Made by a program: the position numbers and the translations under genes. Positions 873 to 53,474 of a stretch of 64,000 nucleotides of DNA are shown here, piece by piece; within the stretch, counting starts at the first letter, position 1, and each line of letters opens with the position of its first letter. The DNA is from Naegleria gruberi (lineage: Eukaryota), in assembly GCA_000004985.1 (NCBI GenBank), contig GG738900.1. One strand, written 5' to 3'. The notes under the pieces are model-generated. The model saw only the letters and a list, made by a program, of their open reading frames with translations, was not told the origin of the DNA and searched no databases.

Positions 873-946
873 GCCTTCCTAGCTCAGTTGGCAGTAGCGC
901 TGTCCTAGTAAGACAGAGGTCTTGGGTTCGATTCCCAAGGGAGGCA
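873..946 (+). tRNA. tRNA-Thr (anticodon AGU)
   Basis: Manual cloverleaf fold. The acceptor stem GCCUUCC/GGGAGGC is 7 bp with one G-U pair. The anticodon stem CUGUC/GACAG closes a loop CUAGUAA (U33, anticodon AGU, A37). The variable loop is 5 nt. The T-arm is UUGGG-UUCGAUU-CCCAA, with discriminator A. The D-arm is slightly atypical: a 3-bp stem plus a mismatch and a 9-nt loop. Confidence 0.8.
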
Positions 947-1269: not shown

Positions 1270-3827
1270 ATGATGAACAACAATAACAAGGAAGGAGTTT
1301 CAACCTCTTCCTCACCGACTCACCAACCAACAACTACACCACCTCCTCCTCATAAAACCTTTTCAATGCCTCATATACCCTCCCTCTCCCTTCAGAAACT
1401 CTCCAATTCATCTTCATCAATATCCACTCAAGATGCTCCACCATCAACAACAACATCTTCATCCTCTTCCTCTCGAGGTCAAACCACACCAAGAACACTC
1501 TTTGAAAGTTTTAAGAGGAAACTTTCACGAGGTTTTCTAAGTCCACGTTCTTCCTCTCCTCCAACAACAAACAATCATAATAATAATTCGTCATCATCAA
1601 CATCAGCATCTCTATCATCATCTTCAAATAGTTTTGAACAACAAGCACAGACGAAACGAGCCACTTCATTCATGGTCGTGGAGGATGATCCAACTCTATT
1701 GAGTGTTCAACAACATACGACAACTGCCAACACCATGACAGATTATACACTCTCTCCACCTACTTCACCTCTTAATGGCATGCCAAATCATCACCACCAG
1801 AATCATCATAATCTTGGAGTTACGAGTCCAACCACTACAACAACGTCTTCCTTGTCGCCCTCTTCTCGAACAAGCTCATTCTCCTCAGTTTATTCTCTAT
1901 ATAATGGTTCGTCTTTGAATATGGGAAACTATTCGAATGGTGCCAATAATAACAATAGCAACCATACAACAATAATTACTCAGCAGAATTCATTCACGAC
2001 TACTACTCCAACAACACCATCCTCTCCAGGAACTAATAGCTCATCTTCTTCACTTTCTGGAAGTAATAAGAAGGCAAAGAAGAGAGGATCCTTTCTTTCA
2101 ATGATTACGAATGTAAAGGCTACAAGTGGTGGAAGTGTTGGAGGAGGTAGCTCACAACAGCCCAAATCTCAACCTCCCATTGATTCATTATTTGATGAGA
2201 CGAGAGCTGAATTGGAAGCTTCACCTAGAGTTGCAAATTCAAAGAAAAAGAAATCACTTTCGAATAGTTTTTCGAATTATGAAGAGGATTTATCAATCAA
2301 AACCAATAATTTGTTCAATAGGAGTAGAAACAGATCCAAGTCAGCTTCCAATCAATTGGATGTACCAAAAATTTCTTTATTCAATACAATTTCATCCAGT
2401 CCAAGTGCCAGTAATTCCCTTCTCACACCAAATGGTTCAGTTTTGAGTGATAATGGGTCACCATTTTCTGGACTCAATCCAGAATCACCCAAATCTGCAA
2501 CCTCACCACGAGTTTCATTTCAAAGATTGACTTTGGGAAGCGGAATTGACGATGCTCCTGAATATCTAGATACAACTGATGATGAATTTAGACAATTAAT
2601 GGATTCAGAAAATGGAAGAGAAATTTTCTTTGCATTCATCCAGAAACATTCTCATTCTGAACAAATTGAATTTCTACAAGAAACCATTCGTCTCTATCAG
2701 GTAAGTTTCATCGATATTTGAGTGATATTAATATCTATCTATTCGAATGATTTATTTTCTTGAAATTTATTGAATATGTTAATTGAACTATTTAATTTTT
2801 ATGCAAATATATATAGGATAATGCCTCCGTTCTTCCAAAATGTACATCACCAAGCTCCAATGCTCATATCCATGAAAATACACCATTCTCTGTCTCATTG
2901 CCTGATAATGGAGACAATCAATTGGGTAGATGTTTATCTCCTCCTTCAAGTAGCAGTTTTATTGGTAGCTCATCATTGTACGATTCTACTTTTGAAAGTC
3001 AATCATCAGTGCCTCATTTCTCCTCTTCCATCTCCTCGATTGGTACTCTCAAAAAGGTGATTTCCAAGAACAAACTCTCCAAACAATCGTCCACTATTGA
3101 GGATAAGTCCCTCATTTCAACCTCTGAAATTTTAATGAGATACAAACAACAAAAATTGCAAACAATTCAACAATCAATCATTTCACAACCATCCCAACAA
3201 CCTCATGTATTTTTCGGATTTAATTTGTATCATATTGACAATCTTGTAAATAAGTTCATTCTCGAACATTCACCCAAAGAATTGAATTTGAGCAAGAGAC
3301 AACGACAAAAAGTTTTGGATCTTTTCGAAAAGCTAAAGAATGAAAAACTAGAATTTTTAAATAGAGAAGTTTATGTAGAAGGTGCAGGAGTTAAAAAAAT
3401 TCCCTATACATTATATACTGACATTCTAGTGACCGAGGAAGAATTTGTTGAAATTTTTAGAGAGATTATCAGTGTTATTAATTTACAATTGAAATTGGAA
3501 TGTTTCAGAGAATTTAGACGATCTAAAGAATATCTAGATGTAATCTTGTGCAATATGGGAGATGTCATTGGTGTGGCCAGTGTAGTTGGTAGCATGAGTC
3601 AGGATAAATTAGAAGCTCTGGTCTCTCCTCGAAGACACATTCTTAATCGTCTAGGAAAATCACGTCGATTATCAGAAGCAGATCTAGGAAAATCTGAATT
3701 CTCTCCCTATCCATTCGGCGAACGTGGTCAATCCAATATCAAAACTCCTAGAACCATGATGAGAAATATGAAAAATCCTCTAGAGCTCTTCCAGTTATTT
3801 GCCAACATTCATCCTCACCACAGATAA
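1270..3827 (+). CDS. RGS (regulator of G-protein signalling) domain protein, about 813 aa. Exons are 1270..2700 and 2817..3827 (intron 2701..2816, GTAAGT...TATAG). The N-terminal half is a long S/T/P/N-rich low-complexity region.
   Basis: Exon 1 ends with ...FRQLMDSENGREIFFAFIQKHSHSEQIEFLQETIRLYQ, the N-terminal half of an RGS box (compare [21 protein letters not shown]). The C-terminal RGS helices (...LECFREFRRSKEYLDVI, compare YPRFLKSDLYLDL) reappear about 230 residues later in exon 2. The intron leaves both exons in phase 0 and keeps one continuous frame. Confidence 0.7.
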
Positions 3828-3938
3828 CAACAGCACAACTTCTTTATCATGTGAGCAAGTTTTCTCCAATAAACAGAATAGCTTTCATTTACATCATTAA
3901 GACCACAAAGCCGTTTCACAAATCATCTGTTAAAAAAA

Positions 3939-5104
3939 ATGTCGGCAAATAAACTAACACGAAATCCTCTCAGCTGTGCAATGGTGTTGATAATTTGCAT
4001 CCACATGCTCAGTCAGGTAATGATGATGGTAGAATGTGGACAAACCACCATTAAATATGCCTCCTTTAATATTCAAGTATTCGGACAAACAAAACTTCAA
4101 AAAACCGATGTTGTGGATGTTCTGATGAGAATTGTTTCACAATATGATTTGATATTTGTGATGGAGGTGAGAGATAGTTCCAATACCACCATTCAAAGTT
4201 TTACATCACAATTAAATAATTATGTGAAAAATTATAGATATGATTTTCAATTGAGTGAAAGATTGGGAAGAACATCGAGTAAGGAACAATATGCATTCTT
4301 ATATAATCCAGAGAAGGTGAAATTTGTCAAGACATTGCAATATATTGATACAAATGATTGGTTTGAGAGACCACCTTATACGTAAGTGTATTGATTTTGG
4401 ACTTGTGTGTTTATTGAGTCGACGAATGTGGTCTGTTATATCAATATTAATAATTTGGAAATGATTCAATTTATTTGAAATTGGAATGAAATTTAATATA
4501 TAGATTTGTGTTCCAATCAGCAGTTGTTTCAAACTCTCCTCAATTTGCAATTACAGGATGCCATATTAAGCCAGAAGCTGCTGTTGATGAAATGTCTAAA
4601 TTGGTCAATGTTACTGATTCATATTCGAGTGAAACATTTTATCCTAATGTTATTCTTTCAGGCGATTTCAATGCAGGTTGCTCATATGTTTCCAATTCTC
4701 AATGGTCACAAGTAGCTCTCAGAACTGACACCAGATTTTCATGGCTCATATCAGATCAAGCGGATACAACTGTTGCTGTTTCCTCATGTCCATATGATCG
4801 TTTTGTTATTTTCCAAAATGCTGCCAAGAGAAATATTACTACTGGAGACGGTTTTGAATATTCCAATGTTGGCATTTTCAGATTTGATAGTGAGTATGGT
4901 TTTAACACAACCTATGCCGCCACTGTAAGTGATCACTATCCAATTTACATGTCGATCAATGTGAAAACTCCAACTCCTACCACTAGCTCATCAGTAATTA
5001 TTCCAAAGAATAGTACTATTGTTCTTTCTCAAGCCAATTCGCAACTTTCTGCGTACATTGGATATTTGATCATGTTCATTTGTCTTTGTTTTGTTCAAAT
5101 GTAA
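3939..5104 (+). CDS. Deoxyribonuclease I (DNase I family) precursor, secreted. Exons are 3939..4381 and 4504..5104 (intron 4382..4503, phase 2).
   Basis: The N-terminal signal peptide is followed by IKYASFNIQVFG, YDLIFVMEVRD and LGRTSSKEQYAFLY. Exon 2 carries SGDFNAGCSYV, WLISDQADTTV, CPYDRFVI and SDHYPIYMSI. These motifs are collinear with mammalian DNase I catalytic motifs (MGDFNAGCSYV, DTTA..CAYDRIVV, SDHYPVEV). The C-terminus is a hydrophobic stretch (YIGYLIMFICLCFVQM). Confidence 0.85.
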
Positions 5105-6093: not shown

Positions 6094-7617
6094 ATGTCTT
6101 CCTCACTTACTATTGAAGTTGTAGAAGAAGGTACATCCGATTTGGATTTTCTAACAATGACACCATCAAATTTTGATTTTACAAGTGACAGTTTACCTTC
6201 CTTCTCCAATTGTATTGATTTTTGTCCCAATCCATCCCTTTTACCACCAATTATCAACACTTTCCGTCAAGAAACTACTGACAATCCTCCCACCAATGCA
6301 GCTTATTTCCCCAATCTTTCCTCCGAATTACTTACAAAACAGCAACCAAAGCGTAGAGTTACCAACAACCAAAGTTTTGATAGAAGAACAATTGACTTGC
6401 ATCCTACAAAAAATCTATCCTCACTTTCTCACAAAAAATCCGAATCCATTGGAGTTTCAAATTCCGTTCCTCAATTTTCCCCTCCGACAGAAGGTGTGAA
6501 TTCTGTAAAGATCCCAACAAGTGGTACCACAACTCAACCACAACGTTCAAAGCTTAGAAGACTTAGAAAGCCAATGAACAATACCAAAAAGTCATCAAGT
6601 CCTACCTCACTTCCAGCTCAGACTTCAAATCTTTCTATCGATACCAATACTGGTTTTGATTATTCACAAAGATTGAAGACTCCTAGTAGCTCTAGTGTGA
6701 ATAGTGAAACTTATCCATTATTCCCTGAAAACTCTAACACTTCTCAAGTTGACCAATCCATTGACGAAGATGATGTCTTCTTGAAGGAGGAAGAAATCAC
6801 TGAATATTGTAGTGATAGAGTTAACTATTCTGCTAGTGCTTTTGACTCTTATCAACTTGAAGATATGGATTCTCAAGATATGTTTGATAGTTTCACACCA
6901 ATTATCTTGCATTCTGAAGATCCATTCATGGATGATGAAGAAGTCACCAATGCCTTCTTGTATTCACAACCTCAACATAATATGGATACTTTGAATGGTA
7001 TTGTTATTCCATCTCCTCTATTGATGACTCAACCAAACAATCCCTCTTCCTTATTGCCTCACTACATTCCACCAATCCAAGATAAGAGCATTGCTGACAA
7101 GTCTAAAAAATCCCTTAGAAGACCTTCTAAAAACAAATCATCTCAAAAACCAATTTTACCTTCCAATTTGAGAAATGAAGTTTTTCCTTCCTTGATTAGG
7201 GTTGAATCAAAAGAGACAGTACAATCTACTGCCTCCGATTTAAGTGAAAGTTCTTCACAAACTTCTATTCCATCTAGAAGCAAATCTCAAGCTATCCACC
7301 ACTCAAATAGTGGTGTTTCAAATGTTCAAACCCACTCAAAACCTAAGCAACCAGACAATCCTAACAAACAAATTACCTTTTGTGACAGTGGATATGAATT
7401 GCCAGCAACCAAAAAATCAACACCTACTCCTCAAATTCAGTTCGTTTCAAACACCCCAAAGGCTCCACAAGGTATTTCCAAACCATGTAAGATGTCTACA
7501 TCTAGTGGTTGGAAGTTCCACAACTTTGACAGAGAGAAGCAACCAATTAGAGATTCTAGTGGTTTGACCTATCACTTTTATCAACCAAAGTCAAAAATTG
7601 CTGCTACAACTCAATAA
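6094..7617 (+). CDS. Hypothetical S/T/P-rich low-complexity protein, 507 aa, with no recognisable domain.
   Basis: A long ORF with a proper ATG, codon usage like its neighbours, basic patches (KLRRLRK, KKSLRRPSKNKS) and serine/threonine-rich composition. Confidence 0.4.
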   Translation: MSSSLTIEVVEEGTSDLDFLTMTPSNFDFTSDSLPSFSNCIDFCPNPSLLPPIINTFRQETTDNPPTNAAYFPNLSSELLTKQQPKRRVTNNQSFDRRTIDLHPTKNLSSLSHKKSESIGVSNSVPQFSPPTEGVNSVKIPTSGTTTQPQRSKLRRLRKPMNNTKKSSSPTSLPAQTSNLSIDTNTGFDYSQRLKTPSSSSVNSETYPLFPENSNTSQVDQSIDEDDVFLKEEEITEYCSDRVNYSASAFDSYQLEDMDSQDMFDSFTPIILHSEDPFMDDEEVTNAFLYSQPQHNMDTLNGIVIPSPLLMTQPNNPSSLLPHYIPPIQDKSIADKSKKSLRRPSKNKSSQKPILPSNLRNEVFPSLIRVESKETVQSTASDLSESSSQTSIPSRSKSQAIHHSNSGVSNVQTHSKPKQPDNPNKQITFCDSGYELPATKKSTPTPQIQFVSNTPKAPQGISKPCKMSTSSGWKFHNFDREKQPIRDSSGLTYHFYQPKSKIAATTQ

Positions 7618-7655: not shown

Positions 7656-8756
7656 CTACCTTACAATCACATCTGGATCGACATGAGGTTTTTTTCTCGT
7701 TTTGGCAAAACTGGAAATCTCCACAAGACCATTGTATGGTTTCTTAGTATTTCCATGGAAGAAGGGCTTTTTGGCTGTTGGTGTATGAGTTGTTGGATTG
7801 TATCGTTTTGAATAGGAATGAGGAGAAATGTTTTGAACACCATGCACTTTTGAAAATATGAAACCACTGAGAGCTGTACATGATATTGTGGGTGTAGTAT
7901 TGGGTTTACCTTGAGGCATGTGATGGTAATGTTCTCGTTCAAGTGTTGTGTTTAAAATTGCACTGTTAATCGTCCTTTGATGATTGTCATGAGCTAGTGA
8001 AAGGGTATTATTATGTTTGTCAAAGACAATATCTTTCTTTTGATGAATGTTGGGTAATCTTGTTTGGGGGTGATGTATTGGAGATGACAAAACTTGTGAG
8101 TTGGCAACAGAACTCACAATGCTATTATTTACAGATCTAATGTTGGCCTTTTCAATTTCTAGAGAATTATTCAATGTCTCTAAATTATTTCTATCATTTC
8201 GAATATCCATGGATTGGAGATGGGCCTCATATTTGGGTGGCCTTATTTGACTTGATTTGTTGCTCGAGTTTAAAGGTGTGGGTGATACAGACCTGTAATG
8301 CTGATCGAATGCTTCCTTATTTTCGATTTGATAAAAACTCATTGAAGGCATTACAATATCATAGGTAATCTTCTTAACAGATGGATCCTGCTGACTCTGA
8401 ACAATATTCGAAATGGCTTCCCTTTTAGAAGGAGAAAACACATTTCCAGTATTGATTCTGACTACTTGAGAGCTTGACACTGAACTATCACCAGGAAAGT
8501 AAGAAGAAGACGTATCGAGGGAATTTCTGGGAGAGTCTTGATTATTTCCATATTGTTGCTGTTGTTGTTGTTGAATTAGAGCTCTTCTTGATATTGTCTC
8601 TTTCTGAGGAGGAGCAATATCGATAGAAGAACCCTCAAGACTTAAACTTCCTCTCTTCTTTTCAACTACAACAGGGGCATGGAATTGAACATCTTCTAGA
8701 ACCATTCCTCCATTATTTGTCAGTGAAGTATTGAAGGTAATTCTGGCTTCATCCAC
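7656..8756 (-). CDS. Hypothetical low-complexity protein (Q/S/N-rich). The 5' end is uncertain. The frame is open upstream to about 8822 with no in-frame ATG, and the first in-frame ATG corresponds to MVLEDVQFHAP.
   Basis: A 1.1-kb ORF. The listed start is GTG, so the true start is either the internal ATG or an unrecognised upstream exon. Confidence 0.35.
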   Translation of the reverse strand: MDEARITFNTSLTNNGGMVLEDVQFHAPVVVEKKRGSLSLEGSSIDIAPPQKETISRRALIQQQQQQQYGNNQDSPRNSLDTSSSYFPGDSSVSSSQVVRINTGNVFSPSKREAISNIVQSQQDPSVKKITYDIVMPSMSFYQIENKEAFDQHYRSVSPTPLNSSNKSSQIRPPKYEAHLQSMDIRNDRNNLETLNNSLEIEKANIRSVNNSIVSSVANSQVLSSPIHHPQTRLPNIHQKKDIVFDKHNNTLSLAHDNHQRTINSAILNTTLEREHYHHMPQGKPNTTPTISCTALSGFIFSKVHGVQNISPHSYSKRYNPTTHTPTAKKPFFHGNTKKPYNGLVEISSFAKTRKKPHVDPDVIVR

Positions 8757-15383: not shown

Positions 15384-17234
15384 TTAGAATCTGCTGACAT
15401 CTCTGCCAAAGATTGCTGTTTTCACCCAATCAGAAGCGAGTGAAAATCTATTCTTCCAAGAAACTTGCTTGGAAAGATAGGCAGCTCTGTATAAATAGAA
15501 AGCTTGCCAACTGGTTACGGTAGTTCCAGAAAGGTCAGCAACTGCATGGTTGTTGCCAATGTAGGCGAATGAGCCCAAATTCTTATAAGTAAATGGTGGT
15601 ACATAGGTAATTCCCTTTTCAATGTCATTAAGGCAATTGCCAAGATAACTTCCTTGCTTGGAGGCGACTTGTGCTGTTTGTGGTAGTGGAGCATAGTATT
15701 CATTGTCAATTCTTTGGATGAGAGATTTGAATTCATCTTTGGAAAGAACATTATCTCCATTCACATCTGCTTGTGTGAAAAGCTTTTTGAGTTTTTGATT
15801 GATTGTGGCAAAGTTTGGATATTCCTTTTCTTTTGCCTTGATTAATGATTCCATTTCTGTAAATGATATAACTCCATCCTTATTGATATCAGCTTGTTCA
15901 AAGAATGACTCGTATTTTTGAACAAGTTTAGGTTGGTCAATTTTAGAACAATCTCCAATAGCATAAACATTATTCAATCCAACAACTTGTAAATGAGCAT
16001 CAACAACGAGTGATTTTTCATTCTTTTGCTTGTAAATATTTTCTGCCAATTTTTTAACAAGTGGAACTTGAGCAACACCAGTCGTCCAGATACAAACTCC
16101 AAAAGGTAATGATACTGGTTCACTCTTCTTTTGTTGATCCTTAAATACGACAACTAGATCATTTTCTCTCACTTCCACAACTCTTGCATTAGTTTTCAAA
16201 TCAACATTATTGAATATAAATTCCTTTTCGCACATTTCACTAATTTTACAATCATAGGTATTTAAAATATGATCTGAGCTATGAATAACTGTAATCTTGA
16301 GTTTTTCAACAATATCCTTTGGAAATAATTTGGAAATATCTTCCTTTACAAAGTCAACCAAGTAACCAAGTGTCTCAATTCCAGCATGTCCTCCTCCCAC
16401 AACTTGAAGAAGTCAATAAAATGTAAAGAAATGTAGAAACTTACCAACTACACTGAGTGCCTTTTGTCTTTCTTCATCTGTCAAGTTTGGCATGCAAGCT
16501 GATTCCAAAACATCCAAAAGTTTCTCTCTAATCTTGACTGCGTGTTCTGGTTGTTTCATTGGAACACTGTATTGATCAACACCTTTCACACCAAAACTAT
16601 TTGGTTGACTTCCAACAGCAATTACCAACTTATCATATTTCAATTCAAAATCATTAGCAATATCACTTCCATTCTGATGATGAATTACATAATTTGAAAT
16701 ATCCTTGCATTTGATCACACCCCTCTCATAATCAACATCATAACATTCAGCTTCATAATACTCAATCAGAGATTTATCCTTTCTTACTCTATTAATCACA
16801 CTTCTGATTGGTTCTGTAATACTTTGCATGGAAACAGTTCCTGCAAGAGCTGCTGGAAGCATTGGAGTAAAAAGGAAATAATTCCTAGGACTAACTACAT
16901 AAACATCATACAAATCCAAATCAATGGATTGAATCAGACCCACTGATGCCCAACCACTTCCAAGAATTACTAATTTCTTCTTTGGTTGATAGGGAGAGTT
17001 ATTAGTTGGTGATGATTTTTCTTCTGCTTGAATAATTAGATTATTAGCTAATACTGATCGGTGATGTTGATCAACATCATGATTGTCTTCATTGGGAGCA
17101 AATTTAACTTGATTGTTGTTGTTGTTGAGAAGGAAATAGGCAGAGGTTGTGATGGTTGCTGCTGCTGTGGTTAGGAGTAACTTTTTCTTGTTGATTATTG
17201 CCTTGGCTGAGAGTATTCTGAAGAGACTCTGCAT
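15384..17234 (-). CDS. Type II (alternative, rotenone-insensitive) NAD(P)H dehydrogenase with a Ca-binding EF-hand insert, likely mitochondrial and external-facing. Exons are 16445..17234 and 15384..16402 (intron 16403..16444, 42 nt).
   Basis: The N-terminus is a presequence-like region. The first dinucleotide fold is ILGSGWASVGL...YDVYVVSPRNYFLFTPMLP. The second is VVVVGGGHAGIE and is reconstituted only after splicing, which joins ...ALSVV to VVGGGHAGIE. EF-hands are present (DINKDGVISFTE, DVNGDNVLSKDE). The overall architecture resembles plant NDB and fungal NDE enzymes. Confidence 0.85.
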
Positions 17235-18654: not shown

Positions 18655-18735
18655 CGCAGACTGCAGGATTCGAACCTACGAAGGTTTCCCCAACAGATTT
18701 CAAGTCTGTCGCCTTAACCACTCGGCCAAGTCTGC
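18655..18735 (-). tRNA. tRNA-Ser (anticodon UGA), class II with a long variable arm.
   Basis: Reverse complement reads GCAGACU-UG-GCC-GAGUGGUUAA-GGC-G-ACAGA-CUUGAAA-UCUGU-(long variable arm UGGGGAAACCUUCGUA)-GCAGG-UUCGAAU-CCUGC-AGUCUGC-G. The anticodon is UGA in a 7-nt loop with U33 and A37. The D-stem is 3 bp, as expected for Ser, with discriminator G. Confidence 0.85.
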
Positions 18736-34300: not shown

Positions 34301-37300
34301 ACAAACTGTAGAATTTACAGCTGGAATGCCGTTACAAATTGGAATTTCACAGTTTGAGCCTTCATATCCCAAGGTTTCATCACAATTACAAATGTCCAAA
34401 TGTGTACAGAAACCACGACCAGAACAAACACTAGGAATATTAGTTGGTACCCCAAAGCAACTGGTGATTTCACAGAAATCACCAGAGTAAGTGTTTGGAC
34501 AAACACAAATATCAAGATCAATGCAAGTACCTACACCATTACAGACCTCTGTAGAATTGGAAGAAATAGAATCACAGGATGTAAATTCACAACGTGGTCC
34601 ATAATAACCATCAAGACAAGAACAAACATCAAATCTGGAACAAGATCCTCTTCCTGAACACACCGTAGAATGGTTTGTTGCTTCAATACCAAAGCAAGTT
34701 GTAAGTTCACACCAAGGTCCATAATAGTTTTGAGTACAGTTGCAAGTATCTAGGCCGACACATTTACCATGACCACTGCAAGATTTGGTTTCATTACTAT
34801 AAATATCATTACATGATGTAACTTCACAATTGATTCCATAGAATTCAGGTTGACATACACATGTATCATAATTAACACATGAACCCTTGCCTGAACAAGT
34901 TTCGTTTGATAATCTAGAGATACCAAAACATTCAAAATCTTGGCAAGTATGTCCATAATAACCTTCTAAACATGAACACTTGTCAAAAGCAGTACAATTA
35001 CCCTTCTCTCCACAAACGGAAGAGTTGGTGGATTCAACACCATAACATGTTGTTATTTCACACCATTTACCATAATAACCATCAGCACAAGAACAATTGT
35101 TTGGTGAAATACAATCTCCTCTTCCTGCACCAGAACATAAACCAACTAATCCATTACATATTGGAATTTCACAATCTGGACCACCATATCCAAGAGTTAA
35201 ATTACAAGTACAGTTATTGTAGAATTCACAAACACCACGTTTGTTACAAGCAAGAGGTGAAGTATTGTTAATACCATTACAAGTTGTGAATTGACACATT
35301 TGTCCATAATAACCAAAATCACATACACACTTGTCTCTTCCAGCACAGTTACCATGTCCACTGCATACATATGTTTCATTACCATAAACACCATAACAAA
35401 TGGAGACAGAGCAGTCATCGCCATAGGAATCTTCCTTACAAATACATTTGTTGTAGTCAATACATTGACCTTTTCCTGCACATGTGAGATTAGAGTGATG
35501 ATCAATTAAATAGCATGAGAAAATATCCAAGCATTCAGAATTTACATAAGGCTCCTTTGGATCACAAGTGATTGGAGCATCAAATGAAGCTTCTTGGAGA
35601 GTAACTTGACCCAATTCCTCAGAATGAACCCAAACTGCACCGTGTATCTTACCTGCAACCCAAAATTCTTGACCATACTTTGCAATAACAGTTCCATGAA
35701 CATGATTGACAAAGACATTTCCGTGAAGTGTTGTACTTAAGATCCAATCAGAAACGGTATTGCCAAAGTAATAAGTAGACCAGAATACATTTCTATATGA
35801 GGCACATTTTTCATATTTGAATTCTGCACCATAATAATGGATATATGGTGCTCTGAACACTACAGGTTCAGTTCCGACAATTACAAACTTGTGACCTTCA
35901 ATTAGCCAACTGTCCCTCAAACAATAGACACCCCCAAATTCAACAATGATGAGTTTTCCTAAAGAATCTGGATTATTAATGATGAAATCACATGGGAGTG
36001 TATTCAATTCATCAACTCTTTTTCCAACCTCATCAACTAGATTTTTGCCAAATTCATCATATGTGTATGTAATTCCATAACTTCCATTTCCAACATAAGG
36101 ATAGACTGGATCAGGGAATAGGAAGGTTGGAGGAGTAATAACCTGAGAAGGAATAGCAATACTTGCTGTCAAGACAGAATTAGCTAGAGAGTTTTTAGCA
36201 AGCAAAGCAGGTTTGTTACTGATCATCTTGTAGCAAGCAAAAATATCACTTTCACATTCAGCACCAGCATAACCACCACGCAAGAACAATNNNNNNNNNN
36301 NNNNNNNNNNNNNNNNNNNNNNNNNNNNNNNNNNNNNNNNNNNNNNNNNNNNNNNNNNNNNNNNNNNNNNNNNNNNNNNNNNNNNNNNNNNNNNNNNNNN
36401 NNNNNNNNNNNNNNNNNNNNNNNNNNNNNNNNNNNNNNNNNNNNNNNNNNNNNNNNNNNNNNNNNNNNNNNNNNNNNNNNNNNNNNNNNNNNNNNNNNNN
36501 NNNNNNNNNNNNNNNNNNNNNNNNNNNNNNNNNNNNNNNNNNNNNNNNNNNNNNNNNNNNNNNNNNNNNNNNNNNNNNNNNNNNNNNNNNNNNNNNNNNN
36601 NNNNNNNNNNNNNNNNNNNNNNNNNNNNNNNNNNNNNNNNNNNNNNNNNNNNNNNNNNNNNNNNNNNNNNNNNNNNNNNNNNNNNNNNNNNNNNNNNNNN
36701 NNNNNNNNNNNNNNNNNNNNNNNNNNNNNNNNNNNNNNNNNNNNNNNNNNNNNNNNNNNNNNNNNNNNNNNNNNNNNNNNNNNNNNNNNNNNNNNNNNNN
36801 NNNNNNNNNNNNNNNNNNNNNNNNNNNNNNNNNNNNNNNNNNNNNNNNNNNNNNNNNNNNNNNNNNNNNNNNNNNNNNNNNNNNNNNNNNNNNNNNNNNN
36901 NNNNNNNNNNNNNNNNNNNNNNNNNNNNNNNNNNNNNNNNNNNNNNNNNNNNNNNNNNNNNNNNNNNNNNNNNNNNNNNNNNNNNNNNNNNNNNNNNNNN
37001 NNNNNNNNNNNNNNNNNNNNNNNNNNNNNNNNNNNNNNNNNNNNNNNNNNNNNNNNNNNNNNNNNNNNNNNNNNNNNNNNNNNNNNNNNNNNNNNNNNNN
37101 NNNNNNNNNNNNNNNNNNNNNNNNNNNNNNNNNNNNNNNNNNNNNNNNNNNNNNNNNNNNNNNNNNNNNNNNNNNNNNNNNNNNNNNNNNNNNNNNNNNN
37201 NNNNNNNNNNNNNNNNNNNNNNNNNNNNNNNNNNNNNNNNNNNNNNNNNNNNNNNNNNNNNNNNNNNNNNNNNNNNNNNNNNNNNNNNNNNNNNNNNNNN

Positions 37301-40300
37301 NNNNNNNNNNNNNNNNNNNNNNNNNNNNNNNNNNNNNNNNNNNNNNNNNNNNNNNNNNNNNNNNNNNNNNNNNNNNNNNNNNNNNNNNNNNNNNNNNNNN
37401 NNNNNNNNNNNNNNNNNNNNNNNNNNNNNNNNNNNNNNNNNNNNNNNNNNNNNNNNNNNNNNNNNNNNNNNNNNNNNNNNNNNNNNNNNNNNNNNNNNNN
37501 NNNNNNNNNNNNNNNNNNNNNNNNNNNNNNNNNNNNNNNNNNNNNNNNNNNNNNNNNNNNNNNNNNNNNNNNNNNNNNNNNNNNNNNNNNNNNNNNNNNN
37601 NNNNNNNNNNNNNNNNNNNNNNNNNNNNNNNNNNNNNNNNNNNNNNNNNNNNNNNNNNNNNNNNNNNNNNNNNNNNNNNNNNNNNNNNNNNNNNNNNNNN
37701 NNNNNNNNNNNNNNNNNNNNNNNNNNNNNNNNNNNNNNNNNNNNNNNNNNNNNNNNNNNNNNNNNNNNNNNNNNNNNNNNNNNNNNNNNNNNNNNNNNNN
37801 NNNNNNNNNNNNNNNNNNNNNNNNNNNNNNNNNNNNNNNNNNNNNNNNNNNNNNNNNNNNNNNNNNNNNNNNNNNNNNNNNNNNNNNNNNNNNNNNNNNN
37901 NNNNNNNNNNNNNNNNNNNNNNNNNNNNNNNNNNNNNNNNNNNNNNNNNNNNNNNNNNNNNNNNNNNNNNNNNNNNNNNNNNNNNNNNNNNNNNNNNNNN
38001 NNNNNNNNNNNNNNNNNNNNNNNNNNNNNNNNNNNNNNNNNNNNNNNNNNNNNNNNNNNNNNNNNNNNNNNNNNNNNNNNNNNNNNNNNNNNNNNNNNNN
38101 NNNNNNNNNNNNNNNNNNNNNNNNNNNNNNNNNNNNNNNNNNNNNNNNNNNNNNNNNNNNNNNNNNNNNNNNNNNNNNNNNNNNNNNNNNNNNNNNNNNN
38201 NNNNNNNNNNNNNNNNNNNNNNNNNNNNNNNNNNNNNNNNNNNNNNNNNNNNNNNNNNNNNNNNNNNNNNNNNNNNNNNNNNNNNNNNNNNNNNNNNNNN
38301 NNNNNNNNNNNNNNNNNNNNNNNNNNNNNNNNNNNNNNNNNNNNNNNNNNNNNNNNNNNNNNNNNNNNNNNNNNNNNNNNNNNNNNNNNNNNNNNNNNNN
38401 NNNNNNNNNNNNNNNNNNNNNNNNNNNNNNNNNNNNNNNNNNNNNNNNNNNNNNNNNNNNNNNNNNNNNNNNNNNNNNNNNNNNNNNNNNNNNNNNNNNN
38501 NNNNNNNNNNNNNNNNNNNNNNNNNNNNNNNNNNNNNNNNNNNNNNNNNNNNNNNNNNNNNNNNNNNNNNNNNNNNNNNNNNNNNNNNNNNNNNNNNNNN
38601 NNNNNNNNNNNNNNNNNNNNNNNNNNNNNNNNNNNNNNNNNNNNNNNNNNNNNNNNNNNNNNNNNNNNNNNNNNNNNNNNNNNNNNNNNNNNNNNNNNNN
38701 NNNNNNNNNNNNNNNNNNNNNNNNNNNNNNNNNNNNNNNNNNNNNNNNNNNNNNNNNNNNNNNNNNNNNNNNNNNNNNNNNNNNNNNNNNNNNNNNNNNN
38801 NNNNNNNNNNNNNNNNNNNNNNNNNNNNNNNNNNNNNNNNNNNNNNNNNNNNNNNNNNNNNNNNNNNNNNNNNNNNNNNNNNNNNNNNNNNNNNNNNNNN
38901 NNNNNNNNNNNNNNNNNNNNNNNNNNNNNNNNNNNNNNNNNNNNNNNNNNNNNNNNNNNNNNNNNNNNNNNNNNNNNNNNNNNNNNNNNNNNNNNNNNNN
39001 NNNNNNNNNNNNNNNNNNNNNNNNNNNNNNNNNNNNNNNNNNNNNNNNNNNNNNNNNNNNNNNNNNNNNNNNNNNNNNNNNNNNNNNNNNNNNNNNNNNN
39101 NNNNNNNNNNNNNNNNNNNNNNNNNNNNNNNNNNNNNNNNNNNNNNNNNNNNNNNNNNNNNNNNNNNNNNNNNNNNNNNNNNNNNNNNNNNNNNNNNNNN
39201 NNNNNNNNNNNNNNNNNNNNNNNNNNNNNNNNNNNNNNNNNNNNNNNNNNNNNNNNNNNNNNNNNNNNNNNNNNNNNNNNNNNNNNNNNNNNNNNNNNNN
39301 NNNNNNNNNNNNNNNNNNNNNNNNNNNNNNNNNNNNNNNNNNNNNNNNNNNNNNNNNNNNNNNNNNNNNNNNNNNNNNNNNNNNNNNNNNNNNNNNNNNN
39401 NNNNNNNNNNNNNNNNNNNNNNNNNNNNNNNNNNNNNNNNNNNNNNNNNNNNNNNNNNNNNNNNNNNNNNNNNNNNNNNNNNNNNNNNNNNNNNNNNNNN
39501 NNNNNNNNNNNNNNNNNNNNNNNNNNNNNNNNNNNNNNNNNNNNNNNNNNNNNNNNNNNNNNNNNNNNNNNNNNNNNNNNNNNNNNNNNNNNNNNNNNNN
39601 NNNNNNNNNNNNNNNNNNNNNNNNNNNNNNNNNNNNNNNNNNNNNNNNNNNNNNNNNNNNNNNNNNNNNNNNNNNNNNNNNNNNNNNNNNNNNNNNNNNN
39701 NNNNNNNNNNNNNNNNNNNNNNNNNNNNNNNNNNNNNNNNNNNNNNNNNNNNNNNNNNNNNNNNNNNNNNNNNNNNNNNNNNNNNNNNNNNNNNNNNNNN
39801 NNNNNNNNNNNNNNNNNNNNNNNNNNNNNNNNNNNNNNNNNNNNNNNNNNNNNNNNNNNNNNNNNNNNNNNNNNNNNNNNNNNNNNNNNNNNNNNNNNNN
39901 NNNNNNNNNNNNNNNNNNNNNNNNNNNNNNNNNNNNNNNNNNNNNNNNNNNNNNNNNNNNNNNNNNNNNNNNNNNNNNNNNNNNNNNNNNNNNNNNNNNN
40001 NNNNNNNNNNNNNNNNNNNNNNNNNNNNNNNNNNNNNNNNNNNNNNNNNNNNNNNNNNNNNNNNNNNNNNNNNNNNNNNNNNNNNNNNNNNNNNNNNNNN
40101 NNNNNNNNNNNNNNNNNNNNNNNNNNNNNNNNNNNNNNNNNNNNNNNNNNNNNNNNNNNNNNNNNNNNNNNNNNNNNNNNNNNNNNNNNNNNNNNNNNNN
40201 NNNNNNNNNNNNNNNNNNNNNNNNNNNNNNNNNNNNNNNNNNNNNNNNNNNNNNNNNNNNNNNNNNNNNNNNNNNNNNNNNNNNNNNNNNNNNNNNNNNN

Positions 40301-43300
40301 NNNNNNNNNNNNNNNNNNNNNNNNNNNNNNNNNNNNNNNNNNNNNNNNNNNNNNNNNNNNNNNNNNNNNNNNNNNNNNNNNNNNNNNNNNNNNNNNNNNN
40401 NNNNNNNNNNNNNNNNNNNNNNNNNNNNNNNNNNNNNNNNNNNNNNNNNNNNNNNNNNNNNNNNNNNNNNNNNNNNNNNNNNNNNNNNNNNNNNNNNNNN
40501 NNNNNNNNNNNNNNNNNNNNNNNNNNNNNNNNNNNNNNNNNNNNNNNNNNNNNNNNNNNNNNNNNNNNNNNNNNNNNNNNNNNNNNNNNNNNNNNNNNNN
40601 NNNNNNNNNNNNNNNNNNNNNNNNNNNNNNNNNNNNNNNNNNNNNNNNNNNNNNNNNNNNNNNNNNNNNNNNNNNNNNNNNNNNNNNNNNNNNNNNNNNN
40701 NNNNNNNNNNNNNNNNNNNNNNNNNNNNNNNNNNNNNNNNNNNNNNNNNNNNNNNNNNNNNNNNNNNNNNNNNNNNNNNNNNNNNNNNNNNNNNNNNNNN
40801 NNNNNNNNNNNNNNNNNNNNNNNNNNNNNNNNNNNNNNNNNNNNNNNNNNNNNNNNNNNNNNNNNNNNNNNNNNNNNNNNNNNNNNNNNNNNNNNNNNNN
40901 NNNNNNNNNNNNNNNNNNNNNNNNNNNNNNNNNNNNNNNNNNNNNNNNNNNNNNNNNNNNNNNNNNNNNNNNNNNNNNNNNNNNNNNNNNNNNNNNNNNN
41001 NNNNNNNNNNNNNNNNNNNNNNNNNNNNNNNNNNNNNNNNNNNNNNNNNNNNNNNNNNNNNNNNNNNNNNNNNNNNNNNNNNNNNNNNNNNNNNNNNNNN
41101 NNNNNNNNNNNNNNNNNNNNNNNNNNNNNNNNNNNNNNNNNNNNNNNNNNNNNNNNNNNNNNNNNNNNNNNNNNNNNNNNNNNNNNNNNNNNNNNNNNNN
41201 NNNNNNNNNNNNNNNNNNNNNNNNNNNNNNNNNNNCACCATAATAGTTTTCGGTACAATTACAAAGATCTGGACGGTAACAAATACCACGTCTATCCTTA
41301 GTACATACGCCAGTAAGTCCATTACAGATTGGAATTTCACAGTTAAAGCCTCCATATCCAAATGTACTATTACATGTGCAGTTATTATAAAAATCACAAG
41401 AACCACGTCCACTACAGACATCTGGAGAGTTGTATTCAATATCGGCGCAAGTTGTCCATTCACACCAAGTTCCATTATAATTAGGATAACAGCTACATGT
41501 ATCCTTTGCAATACAAGCGCCATGACCATTGCTACAAACTGATGATTCAGTACCTAGAGTACCGTTACACATGGCAATAGAACAATCTTGGCCGTATTGA
41601 TCTGGTAAACACAAGCAAGTATTGTTACCTATACAGTAACCATTATTTGAGCATCCATCTTCAACAATTGATTTGGAATTGAAACAGAATGTAAGTAAAC
41701 ATTGCTCATTAATGTATGGTTCGTATCCGTTGAATGTGATTGGAGGAGTGAATGTTACATCGAATAATAGCATCTGTGTACCACCCATAAACCATAAAGC
41801 GCCCTGAATAGTATCATAAATTTCAATTTGATGGTATGGAGCCATTCCTACCACTGTACCGTGAACATTTCCAGAGAAAAAATTACCATTTCTACCATAG
41901 TCCCAAGTCAACCAAAAGACATTTCTATAGGAGGCACATAACAGATAGTAAAAAACGGCATTATAATAATTGACGTATGGAGCCTTAAAAACAACAGGCT
42001 CAAGACCATGGATAATAAAAATATGATCCTTAATTGTGATACCATTAGGGAAACAATACACACCACCATGCTTGATAACAGTAATATTCTGTAATTCATC
42101 TTGACTATTAATGGTATGTGTACAATCCATGTACAATAATTCCATGGATTTCTTTTCCATTTCTTGAATAATCAACTCTGTCATCGGATCATTTTGAGGT
42201 TTTGAAATGACAACATCATTTCCACTTGGTTCGTACATGACTGGAGTTGTTGGTGAGTAGGCATGAGAAACCTGAATGTCAGGTAAGGCGAAACTTGCCT
42301 GTAATTCCTTTTTAGAGTTTCTGGCAATCATAATAGGTTTGGAACTGATAAGTTTGTAGCCAGCAAATATATCTACAGCACAAGCCTCACCAATGAAACC
42401 AGTTTGGCAAGTACAATTGTTGTATGAAATACAAGTACCGTGTCCAGAACAAACTAAAGGAGAATTAGAATCATCACTGAAACATTGTGTCAATTCACAA
42501 TTAGAGCCAAAATAATTATCTACACAAGAGCAAGAGTCAGGAGCAGTACAGTTACCTAGTGAGGTACAAACAGAAGCATTAGAGAAATGCACACCAGAAC
42601 AATTCCAATGTTGGCACTTATCACCATAATATCCATACAGACAATTACAGTTATCAGAACCAATACAGTCACCGTTACCAGAGCAAACAGTTGAATCGTT
42701 TGATCCTATACCATAACACCAATGAACGGTGAAAATCTCTTCATCACAATTGTTACCAGAGTATCCATCAGTGCACAAGCATTTGTCTAAGGCTGTGCAA
42801 TTTCCTTGGCCATTACATACCAGTGAGGAGTTTGACAATACACCAAAGCATTGAGTAACTTGGCAATCATTTCCAAAATAATTGGAACTACATTGACAAT
42901 TATTTAAATCTACACAAGCGCCATTACCAGAGCAAACAGTTGAATCGTTTGATCCTATACCATAACACCAATGAACGGTGAAAATCTCTTCATCACAATT
43001 GTTACCAGAGTATCCATCAGTGCACGAGCATTTATCTAAGGCTGTGCAATTTCCTTGGCCATTACATACCAGTGAGGAGTTTGACAATACACCAAAGCAT
43101 TGGGTAACTTGGCAATCATTTCCAAAATAATTGGAACTACATTGGCAATTATTTAAATCTACACAAGCGCCATTACCAGAGCAAACAGTTGAATCGTTTG
43201 ATCCTATACCATAACACCAATGAACGGTGAAAATCTCTTCATCACAATTGTTACCAGAGTATCCATCAGTGCACAAGCATTTGTCTAAGGCTGTGCAATT

Positions 43301-51878: not shown

Positions 51879-53474
51879 TTATTTAGTCTTTTTAGATGGT
51901 TTTTCCGAATCTCCTGATGACTTCTTTCGTTTTCTTGTAGTTCCATCATCCTTAGCATCCAATCCAGCTTCCTTCAGAAGAGCAGCAGTTTCTGACTCCA
52001 AATCATCTTCATCTTCATCACTGGCATCTTCGTCTTCTTCATCAGATTTGCCAACAAAGTCTTCATCATCTTCTTCATCATCATCTCCCATAATTTGATC
52101 CATTTTAATCTTATCATCTCTGATATCTTTTTCTGTTTTGAGGTCCTTACTCTTTAAGAATTCTGACAATAGTTCACTTTCATTTTGATCAATATTCAAA
52201 AAGGTGTGACTCTTGCCATTCTTCAAAATAATTGACAAATCAAAGAATCTATTACCACTAGAAGCTCTAAGGAATTTGATTAATTTGATTTCATCATGTC
52301 TTATATAAATAACTGGTTTGTGTAAGAAAAAGACTGATTTTTCAAGGAAGAATAATTGACCTTCGTTGGCCTTAAGTGAACATTTCAATGCCTTATCATT
52401 TCCATGTGTAACATATTTACCAGATCCGATAAGTTTCTTCTTAGTTAGTGATCTCAAAACTTTAGCAAAAACTTCATAGATCTTTCCATTCATCTTAGGA
52501 GTCAAATCTCCCATTTCATTCTTTTCTAATTTAATAGAAAGTGGTTCATCCAATGTTTTGTGTTTTTCAATTTGGAATACAATGTGGAAGTGTGATTTTT
52601 GTCCTTGTCTGAATGGTGTATCTAAACTAATGACAAGGTACATGTGTTGGTCACCAGGTTTTGGAAGAAGGAAGAGTGTGGAAATTTGTTTGTATGTAAT
52701 CTTGTGTACATAGGTTCTACCATAGAGCCTGAGATGGCTCTTGAATAAGTCAACATTGTATTTACCTCTAGGAATGAGAACTGGCATTTGTGAAAATGAT
52801 GCAACAGGTGTTCCCAAATCTTTAGAAAGATCAGCTTTTTGTGAAATCTTTTCATGTAAAGCATCTGCTGTCATATCTTTGATTGCTAGATTCTTTTCTT
52901 CTTGTTCCTCTTCATCCTGATCTTCTGCTGGTTCGGATGTTTCAGGACAAACAAAACGAATTTCTGTCAATTGGATTGAATTCTTATCTGTATGTTCATC
53001 ATCTCTAAATTCCAAAAGTAATTCGGAGTTCTTTGGTATCTTTTGGCAATTTTTAATATCATCAGCAAGTGAAATTGAAAATAATTCCTTGTCTTCAAAG
53101 TACATCATCATATGACTACCTTTAATGACAGGTTTTCCCCAGTTAACACCCTTCATACAAGTTTCTACCTTGTTGAAAGGAATATCACTTTCGACTTGGA
53201 CTTGAACAATTTGTGATTCCAACTGTTCATAATCGGCTTCTTTGAATCCTAGGTAGCTAACAAAATCGTCATCAGCTTTCCAAAGTCTCAACTCGTATCC
53301 TCTAGGTGTGTATAACCAATCAATTGATGAAATTTCACTTTTTTTAACGGCTGAAATGATCGATTCGTTCCCAACAGATTTCCAAACAAACATTTCTTCA
53401 TTCTTTGCATCAACAATAATAGAACCTTGAGTGAAGGATCTACCGAGAAATATGTGAGAAAACTCCTTTGACAT
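51879..53474 (-). CDS. FACT complex subunit SSRP1/Pob3-type, with no HMG box, 531 aa, single exon.
   Basis: Collinear with SSRP1 over its length. [10 protein letters not shown] matches [75 protein letters not shown] matches [79 protein letters not shown] matches YVHKPPVHIRFDEI. An acidic/basic C-terminal tail follows. Confidence 0.9.
   Translation of the reverse strand: [531 protein letters not shown]

What the first reader, a model, noticed from the sequence alone, without database searches (positions are those of the whole stretch)
3939..5104. Secreted DNase I with a C-terminal hydrophobic tail, possibly GPI-anchored
This is a very clear DNase I orthologue, with catalytic motifs preserved nearly letter for letter. 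It has an N-terminal signal peptide and, unusually, a terminal hydrophobic stretch (…SAYIGYLIMFICLCFVQM) preceded by small residues. That pattern is typical of a GPI-attachment signal, so this may be a cell-surface or secreted nuclease. In a bacterivorous social amoeba such an enzyme could digest prey or biofilm DNA, or remodel DNA-based extracellular traps.
Basis: partly seen in the sequence, partly recalled or inferred. Interest (0 to 1): 0.5.

Follow-up and report, generated by a model that had tools for sequence, protein, structure and literature searches.

The report
Surface-tethered DNase I of Naegleria gruberi
This is an intact two-exon gene for a secretory-pathway DNase I in the free-living amoeba Naegleria gruberi (not a social amoeba), and its C-terminal hydrophobic tail, conserved in its closest relatives, probably tethers it to the cell surface by a GPI lipid anchor, as in human DNase X.

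Summary
Window 3939..5104 (+) is a two-exon gene: exon 1 3939-4381, a 122-nt GTAAGT...TATAG intron, exon 2 4504-5104. It encodes a 347-aa DNase I-family enzyme (E = 7e-53 to bovine DNase I). All catalytic residues and the essential disulfide are present.

The protein has only two hydrophobic segments, an N-terminal signal-like one and the last ~17-20 residues. Between the domain and the tail lie a Thr/Pro/Ser-rich linker and small residues (S323-Q-A325).

The tail is real coding sequence. The orthologues in N. fowleri, N. lovaniensis and Willaertia magna, plus one metagenomic relative, form a clade with 98% bootstrap. All five carry the same linker-plus-tail layout with unrelated sequence, and the two Naegleria orthologue genes have no intron.

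- The organism is Naegleria gruberi (a neighbouring SSRP1 is 100% identical), not a social amoeba.
- Such tails are not unusual: 21 of the 120 best homologues have one, and human DNASE1L1 (DNase X) is reported as GPI-anchored.

GPI attachment remains a rule-based inference. No trained predictor or biochemistry was available, and a plain transmembrane anchor is the main rival. The gene product is absent from the public protein collection searched. I rate it a new member of a known kind, of modest interest.

The parts
3939..4381 (+). Exon 1 (codons 1-147 plus two bases of codon 148). The start ATG is at 3939, preceded by an A-run.
   Evidence: An upstream in-frame stop lies at 3879.
3939..4037 (+). 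Predicted signal peptide, residues 1-33. The n-region carries K5 and R8, the hydrophobic core is about residues 11-31, and the (-3,-1) rule gives VEC|GQT (alternative GQT|TIK after residue 36).
   Evidence: Hydropathy and (-3,-1) scan. Bovine mature residue L1 aligns to I38. Rule-based only; no trained predictor was run.
4382..4503 (+). Spliceosomal intron, 122 nt, GTAAGT...TATAG, phase 2, 25% GC, with in-frame stops.
   Evidence: The junction was validated by a gap-free alignment across WFERPPYT|FVF.
4504..5104 (+). Exon 2 (third base of codon 148 to codon 347, plus the TAA stop at 5102-5104).
4050..4960 (+). DNase I catalytic domain, residues 38-300, interrupted by the intron. Catalytic residues are E76, E116, H168 (4562-4564), D202, N204, D246 and H292 (4934-4936). 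The disulfide pair is C207-C243.
   Evidence: A model of the orthologue matches bovine DNase I with TM 0.91.
4961..5026 (+). Thr/Pro/Ser-rich linker or stalk, residues 301-322 (NVKTPTPTTSSSVIIPKNSTIVL), including the N317-S-T sequon.
   Evidence: The equivalent stretch in the N. fowleri model has low confidence and no secondary structure.
5027..5050 (+). Candidate omega region and spacer, residues 323-330 (SQANSQLS). The omega candidates are S323 (omega+2 = A325) or A325 (omega+2 = S327).
   Evidence: Rule-based scan. S323 leaves 24 residues after omega.
5051..5101 (+). C-terminal hydrophobic tail, residues 331-347 (AYIGYLIMFICLCFVQM). It has no charged residue and runs to the last residue.
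   Evidence: mean KD 2.06 over 17 aa. The feature is conserved in P0004, P0006, P0011 and P0012.

Best explanation
The gene encodes the Naegleria gruberi member of a heterolobosean clade of DNase I-family endonucleases that are made in the secretory pathway and held on the outside of the cell membrane.

Shown here:
- The DNase I fold and its full catalytic set.
- A hydrophobic N-terminal leader that ends just before the first strand of the fold.
- Five N-glycosylation sequons.
- A disordered Thr/Pro/Ser-rich linker.
- A terminal uncharged hydrophobic stretch of 17-21 residues, preceded by small residues.
- The same layout in every member of the clade, although the tail sequences are unrelated.

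Inferred:
- The leader is cleaved near residue 33.
- GPI transamidase cuts at S323 (or A325) and attaches a GPI lipid.
- The enzyme stands on a glycosylated stalk on the plasma membrane, and therefore also on the inner face of food cups and phagosomes.
- There it cuts double-stranded DNA in a Ca2+/Mg2+-dependent way.
- The likely role is digestion of DNA from bacterial prey and biofilm matrix at the point of contact. This would parallel the reported recruitment of GPI-anchored DNase X to macrophage phagocytic cups.
For: Fold and catalysis:
- E = 7e-53 to bovine DNase I, with all catalytic and disulfide residues aligned.
- Those residues fall in invariant or nearly invariant columns of the 13- and 81-sequence alignments.
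- The AlphaFold model of the 56%-identical N. fowleri orthologue has core pLDDT of about 97. It matches DNase I structures with TM 0.89-0.93. The next EEP families are about 17 orders of magnitude weaker.

Topology:
- The only two hydrophobic segments span about residues 9-32 and 328-347.
- The tail has no charged residue and nothing follows it.
- S323-Q-A325 satisfies the small-residue rule at omega and omega+2, and 24 residues follow omega.
- The four relatives give 22-29 residues after their candidate sites. Human DNASE1L1, used as a positive control, gives 27 with the same S-Q-A tripeptide.

Conservation:
- Neighbour-joining on 255 catalytic-domain columns only groups the five tail-bearing proteins at 98/100 bootstrap. 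The sister paralogue group has no tail.
- The N. fowleri and N. lovaniensis genes are single exons, so their tails are unquestionably coding.

Precedent:
- DNaseX/DNASE1L1 is described as GPI-anchored and PI-PLC-sensitive, acting at phagocytic cups and on S. aureus biofilm DNA (PMC13649258).
- A Naegleria pangenome study reports evidence of GPI-anchored proteins in the genus (PMC9928731).
Against: - No trained GPI predictor (big-PI, PredGPI, NetGPI) and no signal-peptide predictor could be run. The omega-site call rests on my own simple rules.
- The presence of GPI transamidase in N. gruberi was not checked here, and I found no paper on it.
- The N. lovaniensis tail is 22-25 residues long, enough for a membrane-spanning helix.
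- The spacer after S323 is short (5-7 residues).
- The product is absent from the public protein collection, so there is no annotation or expression evidence for this gene.
- The biological role is argued by analogy only.
Confidence: 0.62

Rival explanations
1. The enzyme is membrane-bound, but the terminal hydrophobic stretch stays attached and spans the bilayer as a type I anchor with essentially no cytoplasmic tail. No GPI lipid is added. The nuclease domain would face the same way and do the same job.
For: - With the flanking SQLS included, the uncharged C-terminal stretch is 21 residues in the window protein and 25 in N. lovaniensis.
- The N. fowleri tail is modelled as a 19-residue helix.
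- Thirteen other DNase I homologues have clear transmembrane segments followed by charged cytoplasmic tails, so protein anchoring also exists in the family.
Against: - The strongly hydrophobic core is only 15-17 residues in four of the five clade members.
- No stop-transfer basic residues follow it in any of the five.
- Small-residue omega candidates sit at the expected distance in all five.
Confidence: 0.2
2. The enzyme is in practice a soluble secreted or phagolysosomal DNase. The tail would be only a transient feature, for example shed after anchoring by an endogenous phospholipase or protease, or a sorting signal. DNA digestion would then occur in the medium or in food vacuoles rather than on the surface.
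For: - Classical DNase I is a soluble secreted enzyme (PDB matches).
- Naegleria also has tail-less paralogues.
- A review notes that these amoebae lack a clear DNase II homologue, so another nuclease must digest prey DNA (PMC13315211).
Against: The linker-plus-tail layout is kept across at least two genera while its sequence drifts freely. That argues for selection on membrane attachment itself.
Confidence: 0.12
3. The locus is a silent or decaying copy in N. gruberi, which would explain why no public protein model exists for it.
For: The exact product is not in the 15-billion-sequence collection. No N. gruberi hit exceeds 47% identity.
Against: - The reading frame is intact.
- The intron has canonical ends.
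- Every catalytic residue and the essential disulfide are retained.
- The 56-57% identity to the N. fowleri and N. lovaniensis orthologues is about the same as for the housekeeping SSRP1 between these species, which is 58%.
Confidence: 0.05

Closest known systems
Human DNASE1L1 (DNase X), the GPI-anchored member of the vertebrate DNase I family
   Same: - Same DNase I fold and catalytic residues.
- N-terminal signal.
- A C-terminal extension that ends in an uncharged hydrophobic tail, preceded by S-Q-A.
- It is reported to be PI-PLC-releasable and to work at phagocytic cups of a professional phagocyte.
   Different: - It is not an orthologue: 28% identity to the window protein, against 40% for platypus DNase I.
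- The window protein sits in a heterolobosean clade whose sister paralogues lack the tail, so the tail was very probably gained independently.
- The amoebal proteins have a longer Ser/Thr/Pro-rich stalk and 4-6 N-glycosylation sequons, against one in DNASE1L1.
Bovine/human DNase I (EC 3.1.21.1; PDB 1ATN, 1DNK, 4AWN)
   Same: - About 40% identity over the whole domain.
- All catalytic residues (E39, E78, H134, D168, N170, D212, H252) and the C173-C209 disulfide are conserved.
   Different: - The soluble enzyme ends two residues after the domain; the window protein continues for about 47 more.
- The C101-C104 loop is deleted.
- DNA contacts R9 and Y76 are Q and S.
- Actin contacts Y65, V67 and A114 are F, L and Y (read from the alignment). 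From published work on actin-resistant DNase I mutants, recalled and not checked here, this suggests weak or no actin inhibition.
Naegleria fowleri FDP41_004042 (XP_044561460.1), N. lovaniensis C9374_000658 and Willaertia magna ABK040_011672, all annotated only as hypothetical proteins
   Same: - These are orthologues at 54-57% identity.
- They share the signal, domain, S/T-rich linker and terminal hydrophobic tail.
- The clade has 98% bootstrap support.
   Different: - The two Naegleria genes are intronless; the window gene has one intron.
- Tail sequences are unrelated.
- No conserved gene neighbourhood within 10 kb.
- None has been characterised.
Tail-less Naegleria DNase I paralogues (N. 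gruberi XP_002679018.1 = P0014, P0068; N. fowleri P0015; N. lovaniensis P0016)
   Same: Same family. They are sister to the tail-bearing clade (99% bootstrap for the two groups together).
   Different: - They end in a conserved, acidic ...KIGSSSKTL(A/S)DLV.EDF... extension with no hydrophobic tail.
- They carry few or no N-glycosylation sequons.

Membership tests
DNase I family (endonuclease/exonuclease/phosphatase superfamily, Pfam PF03372) | Full-length sequence similarity to DNase I and the EEP fold | tested here: met
   - Pfam scores 34.5 bits against a cutoff of 24.5.
- E = 7e-53 to bovine DNase I over residues 32-298.
- The orthologue model matches DNase I with TM 0.91.
DNase I family (endonuclease/exonuclease/phosphatase superfamily, Pfam PF03372) | Catalytic and metal-binding residues E39, E78, H134, D168, N170, D212, H252 (bovine numbering) | tested here: met
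   They correspond to E76, E116, H168, D202, N204, D246 and H292. All are invariant or nearly invariant in the 13- and 81-sequence alignments.
DNase I family (endonuclease/exonuclease/phosphatase superfamily, Pfam PF03372) | Essential disulfide C173-C209 | tested here: met
   C207 and C243 align to it. Both columns are at least 90% conserved.
DNase I family (endonuclease/exonuclease/phosphatase superfamily, Pfam PF03372) | Ca2+/Mg2+-dependent endonucleolytic cleavage of double-stranded DNA | not testable with these tools
   This needs an enzyme assay.
GPI-anchored proteins | Cleavable N-terminal ER signal peptide | tested here: inconclusive
   A hydrophobic segment spans about residues 9-32, with basic K5 and R8 before it and (-3,-1) sites after C33 or T36. 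It ends just before the residue that aligns to mature bovine L1. The evidence is rule-based only. The 21-residue core is long for a signal peptide, so an uncleaved signal anchor is not formally excluded.
GPI-anchored proteins | Uncharged hydrophobic tail at the extreme C-terminus with no cytoplasmic residues after it | tested here: met
   AYIGYLIMFICLCFVQM is 17 aa with mean KD 2.06 and is the last residues of the protein.
GPI-anchored proteins | Small residues at omega and omega+2, followed by a short polar spacer | tested here: met
   S323-Q-A325 or A325-N-S327, then spacer NSQLS. Comparable sites lie 22-29 residues from the C-terminus in all four relatives and in human DNASE1L1. This uses my own rule, not a trained predictor.
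GPI-anchored proteins | Positive call by a trained predictor (big-PI, PredGPI, NetGPI) | not testable with these tools
   None of these is installed and there is no network access.
GPI-anchored proteins | The host encodes the GPI biosynthesis and transamidase machinery | not tested
   Only 64 kb of the genome was available. Literature searches for the Naegleria transamidase found nothing. One pangenome paper mentions evidence of GPI-anchored proteins in the genus.
GPI-anchored proteins | Release by PI-PLC, or chemical detection of the anchor | not testable with these tools
   This needs an experiment.
DNASE1L1 (DNase X) orthologous group | Orthology to vertebrate DNASE1L1 | tested here: not met
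   Identity to human DNASE1L1 (sequence verified by exact look-up) is 28%, against 40% to platypus DNase I. The window protein belongs to a heterolobosean clade with 99% bootstrap. It works like DNase X but is not a member of that group.

The most novel reading that the evidence does not exclude
Membrane-tethered DNase I may be a recurrent, possibly ancient tool of phagocytic cells, not a mammalian oddity. On this reading the Naegleria enzyme acts at food cups as 'digest before ingest', as reported for DNase X in macrophages. Its N. fowleri orthologue would cut neutrophil DNA traps. The same enzyme would be one reason why DNA transfection of Naegleria has been so hard.
Probability: 0.2. Interest if true: 0.6.

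Novelty: new member of a known kind. Interest (0 to 1): 0.33.

Why it matters
[quoted passage not shown] This gene, its heterolobosean orthologues and about a quarter of the best DNase I homologues carry membrane-anchor-like C-termini. Surface tethering therefore seems common and under-recognised.
- **Prey DNA digestion.** The gene is a concrete candidate for prey-DNA and biofilm-DNA digestion at the surface of a bacterivorous amoeba.
- **Pathogen relevance.** The uncharacterised N. fowleri orthologue (FDP41_004042) could be tested for degradation of neutrophil DNA traps.
- **Transfection.** A recent review suggests that nucleases hinder transfection of pathogenic free-living amoebae. A DNase I on the cell surface is an obvious suspect and is easy to inhibit or strip.
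- **Annotation.** The gene appears to be missing from the public N. gruberi protein set.

Tried and rejected
- **Dictyostelid origin: rejected.** The window's SSRP1 is 100% identical to the N. gruberi protein. The next hits are N. lovaniensis at 58% and Acrasis kona at 44%. No dictyostelid appears among the 120 best DNase hits.
- **Tail as an intron or mis-splice artefact: rejected.** The orthologue genes are single-exon with an equivalent tail. The only donor-like sites in exon 2 (GTGAGT at 4890, GTAAGT at 4925) lie upstream of the catalytic His292 codon, so using them would destroy the enzyme. No ORF longer than 61 aa follows the stop codon.
- **Exact-product look-ups: nothing on record.** This applied to two window ORFs and to the N. 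gruberi SSRP1 itself, so the public annotation of this locus could not be inspected.
- **Microsynteny: none found.** tblastn of six neighbouring window ORFs against the N. fowleri and N. lovaniensis loci matched only the DNase.
- The product is spliced and so not contiguous in the window. The N. fowleri orthologue was modelled instead.
- **GPI machinery in Naegleria: not resolved.** Three literature searches found nothing useful. The N. fowleri CD59-like protein paper (PMC1360335) is not held. I ran no further search on GPI8, because a human query would fill the 120 listed rows with animal sequences.
- **Literature on a Naegleria DNase I: none found**.
- **RNA genes near the locus: none.** The only two tRNAs are at 873-946 and 18655-18735.
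- **A second ORF with a very hydrophobic C-terminus** (58322-58396) is an exon of a multi-pass membrane protein and is unrelated.

Full report
**1. What is in the sequence**

Window 3939..5104 on the + strand holds two open reading frames in different phases, 3939..4385 and 4508..5104. They are joined by removing a 122-nt intron at 4382-4503. The intron has GTAAGT at its 5' end and TATAG at its 3' end, 25% G+C (exons 33-36%) and in-frame stops.

The spliced product is 347 aa. The junction reads WFERPPYT|FVF. It aligns without a gap to every relative and is identical over those 11 residues to a paralogue, P0013. The ATG at 3939 follows an A-run, and an in-frame stop lies upstream at 3879.

**2. 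It is a DNase I**

- Pfam places residues 41-292 in Exo_endo_phos, above the curated cutoff.
- phmmer against all PDB chains gives E = 7e-53 to bovine DNase I and E = 3e-49 to human DNase1L3.
- In that alignment, bovine N7, E39, R41, E78, R111, H134, D168, N170, C173, C209, Y211, D212, D251 and H252 are all matched.
- E76, E116, H168, D202, N204, Y245, D246, D291 and H292 of the window protein fall in invariant or nearly invariant columns of the 13- and 81-sequence alignments.
- Differences from the bovine enzyme:
  - The non-essential C101-C104 loop is deleted.
  - DNA contacts R9 and Y76 are Q and S.
  - Actin contacts Y65, V67 and A114 are F, L and Y.
  - From published work on actin-resistant DNase I, which I recall but did not check, the last change suggests little actin inhibition.
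- The spliced protein could not be submitted for structure prediction, so I modelled the 56%-identical N. fowleri orthologue.
- Its core (residues 44-313) has pLDDT of about 97.
- It matches DNase I crystal structures at TM 0.89-0.93. The next EEP families (TDP2 and others) are about 17 orders of magnitude weaker.

**3. The organism is Naegleria gruberi**

The ORF at 51879..53474 (-) is 100% identical over 531 aa to the N. gruberi SSRP1 protein. The next hits are N. lovaniensis at 58%, Willaertia magna at 55% and Acrasis kona at 44%.

The window is compact, with long ORFs, 32-37% G+C and a 4,945-base assembly gap. N. gruberi is a solitary, bacterivorous amoeboflagellate of the Heterolobosea, not a social amoeba.

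The nearest single-domain relatives of the DNase are also heterolobosean: N. lovaniensis 57%, N. fowleri 56%, W. magna 54% and one unnamed ENA contig at 59%. No dictyostelid appears among the 120 best hits.

**4. The gene is missing from public protein sets**

The exact product is not in the 15-billion-sequence collection. The best N. gruberi hit in the homology search is a different paralogue at 47% identity. A full or partial model of this locus would have been near-identical and would have ranked first. The gene therefore appears unannotated. I could not inspect the public annotation directly.

**5. The ends of the protein**

Windows of 15 aa with mean hydropathy >= 1.6 occur only at the two ends, covering about residues 9-32 and 328-347.

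- **N-terminal segment.** It follows K5 and R8 and ends at VEC|GQT or GQT|TIK, just before I38, which aligns with residue 1 of mature bovine DNase I.
- **C-terminal extension.** After the domain (SDHYP at 290-294) come about 53 further residues:
  - a Thr/Pro/Ser-rich stretch (KTPTPTTSSS...) with an N-S-T sequon;
  - small and polar residues (S323-Q-A-N-S-Q-L-S);
  - AYIGYLIMFICLCFVQM, 17 uncharged residues that are the last in the protein.
- **Fit to the GPI-signal layout.** S323 (omega+2 = A325) or A325 (omega+2 = S327) fit the textbook pattern. S323 leaves 24 residues after omega.
- **Positive control.** Human DNASE1L1 gives the same S-Q-A tripeptide with 27 residues after omega under the same rules. 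I recalled its sequence from memory and verified it by exact look-up as DNSL1_HUMAN.
- **Glycosylation.** There are five N-X-S/T sequons in all, which suits a secretory-pathway glycoprotein.

**6. The tail is conserved as a feature, not as a sequence**

N. fowleri P0004, N. lovaniensis P0006, W. magna P0012 and the metagenomic P0011 each end in an S/T-rich linker followed by an uncharged hydrophobic tail of 15-25 residues. Small-residue candidate sites lie 22-29 residues from the C-terminus. The tail sequences are unrelated.

A neighbour-joining tree on 255 catalytic-domain columns only (tail excluded) groups these five at 98/100 bootstrap. A sister group of Naegleria paralogues joins them at 99/100. 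That sister group ends instead in a conserved acidic ...KTLADLV.EDF... extension and has no tail.

The N. fowleri and N. lovaniensis genes are single exons of 1,071 and 1,062 nt, so their tails are contiguous coding sequence. In the window gene the only donor-like hexamers in exon 2 lie upstream of the catalytic His292 codon.

In the N. fowleri model the linker (314-332) has low confidence and no secondary structure. The tail forms a terminal helix at 333-351.

**7. The tail is not unusual in the family**

Of the 120 best homologues, 21 end in a hydrophobic segment within five residues of the C-terminus. Thirteen more have a transmembrane-like segment followed by a longer, often charged stretch. 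These come from echinoderms, an annelid, sponges, a fish and unnamed protist-like contigs.

Mammalian DNASE1L1 (DNase X) is described as GPI-anchored and PI-PLC-sensitive. It is recruited to macrophage phagocytic cups, where it degrades DNA, including S. aureus biofilm DNA (PMC13649258, citing Shiokawa et al. 2007).

The window protein is not an orthologue of DNASE1L1. Identity is 28%, against 40% to platypus DNase I. It lies inside a heterolobosean clade with tail-less sisters, so the tail is best read as an independent gain.

**8. Most likely mechanism**

- Shown: the DNase I catalytic machinery, the two terminal hydrophobic segments, the linker, and clade-wide conservation of this layout.
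- Inferred: entry into the ER, signal cleavage near residue 33, N- and O-glycosylation, GPI transamidation at S323 or A325, and display on a stalk on the plasma membrane and hence inside food cups and phagosomes.
- Also inferred: Ca2+/Mg2+-dependent cutting of DNA from prey and biofilm at the contact site.
- I give this about 0.6.

The rivals, in order:
- The tail stays as a transmembrane anchor, with the same biology but different chemistry (about 0.2). The 21-25-residue uncharged stretches in two members favour this. The short hydrophobic cores, the absence of stop-transfer charges and the omega-like sites argue against it.
- The enzyme is effectively soluble or phagolysosomal (about 0.12).
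- The locus is silent or decaying (about 0.05). The intact frame and catalytic residues argue against this, as does the level of divergence, which is about the same as for SSRP1 between these species.

**9. What I could not do**

- No trained GPI or signal-peptide predictor was available.
- I did not check that N. gruberi encodes the GPI transamidase. Three literature searches found nothing, and one relevant paper is not held. A pangenome paper mentions evidence of GPI-anchored proteins in the genus.
- I found no paper on a Naegleria DNase I.
- No gene-order conservation supports orthology. Orthology rests on the tree and the shared architecture.

**10. Verdict**

This is a new, uncharacterised and apparently unannotated member of a known kind, a membrane-tethered DNase I-family nuclease. 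Its interest is modest. It rests mainly on three points:
- the parallel with DNase X at phagocytic cups;
- the N. fowleri orthologue as a possible agent against neutrophil DNA traps;
- a possible explanation for poor transfection of these amoebae.

Noticed in passing
window 22310-43789 (-), with a run of N at 36291-41235: A single giant open frame (7,159 codons counting the gap) is made almost entirely of teneurin-type EGF repeats (EGF_TEN E = 4.5e-155). It is interrupted by a 4,945-base assembly gap, so its true length and repeat number are unknown.
   Followed up: partly
window 3939-5104: The DNase product is absent from the 15-billion-protein collection. No N. gruberi protein matches it above 47% identity. 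The gene seems to be missing from the public N. gruberi annotation.
   Followed up: partly
proteins P0013, P0014, P0015, P0016, P0068 (Naegleria paralogues; not in the window): A sister group of Naegleria DNase I paralogues shares a conserved acidic C-terminal extension (...KIGSSSKTL(A/S)DLV.EDF...) of unknown role. Of the three I scanned, P0013 and P0014 have no N-glycosylation sequon and P0016 has two, against 4-6 in the tail-bearing clade.
   Followed up: no
proteins P0001-P0120 (best DNase I homologues): 34 of the 120 carry a C-terminal hydrophobic or transmembrane-like segment. They include tandem two-domain DNases of sea urchins and starfish, an annelid, sponges and a fish. Membrane tethering looks widespread in the family although the literature names only DNase X.
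   Followed up: partly
window 4925-4930 and 4890-4895: A perfect splice-donor consensus GTAAGT lies inside the codons for T-V-S-D-H of the catalytic SDHYP motif. A GTGAGT lies 35 bases upstream. Both would destroy the enzyme if used, so they are presumably silent.
   Followed up: yes
window 4345-4381 and 4504-4520 (residues about 136-153); also residues 101-107: Residues that contact actin in bovine DNase I are replaced (Y65F, V67L, A114Y). This suggests the amoebal enzyme is not inhibited by G-actin. The reading comes from the alignment plus recalled mutagenesis literature.
   Followed up: no
window 15384-17234 (-): Two adjacent ORFs together look like a type II NADH dehydrogenase with inserted EF-hand calcium-binding motifs (Pyr_redox_2, EF-hand, NDH2_C). 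They are probably one gene split by a short intron.
   Followed up: no
window 48498-51035 (-), 51879-53474 (-), 44363-45241 (+), 46651-47574 (-): Neighbouring genes include a Tudor-SN-type protein with four staphylococcal-nuclease repeats plus a Tudor domain, the FACT subunit SSRP1, a cytochrome P450 fragment and a flavin monooxygenase fragment.
   Followed up: no
window 873-946 (+) and 18655-18735 (-): Two tRNA genes are present, Thr(AGT) and Ser(TGA). They are the only Rfam matches in the window.
   Followed up: yes
window 1270-2721, 2898-3827, 6094-7617, 7656-8756: The four long ORFs flanking the DNase gene have no Pfam match. They also have no tblastn match near the N. fowleri or N. lovaniensis orthologues, so they may be lineage-specific genes.
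   Followed up: partly
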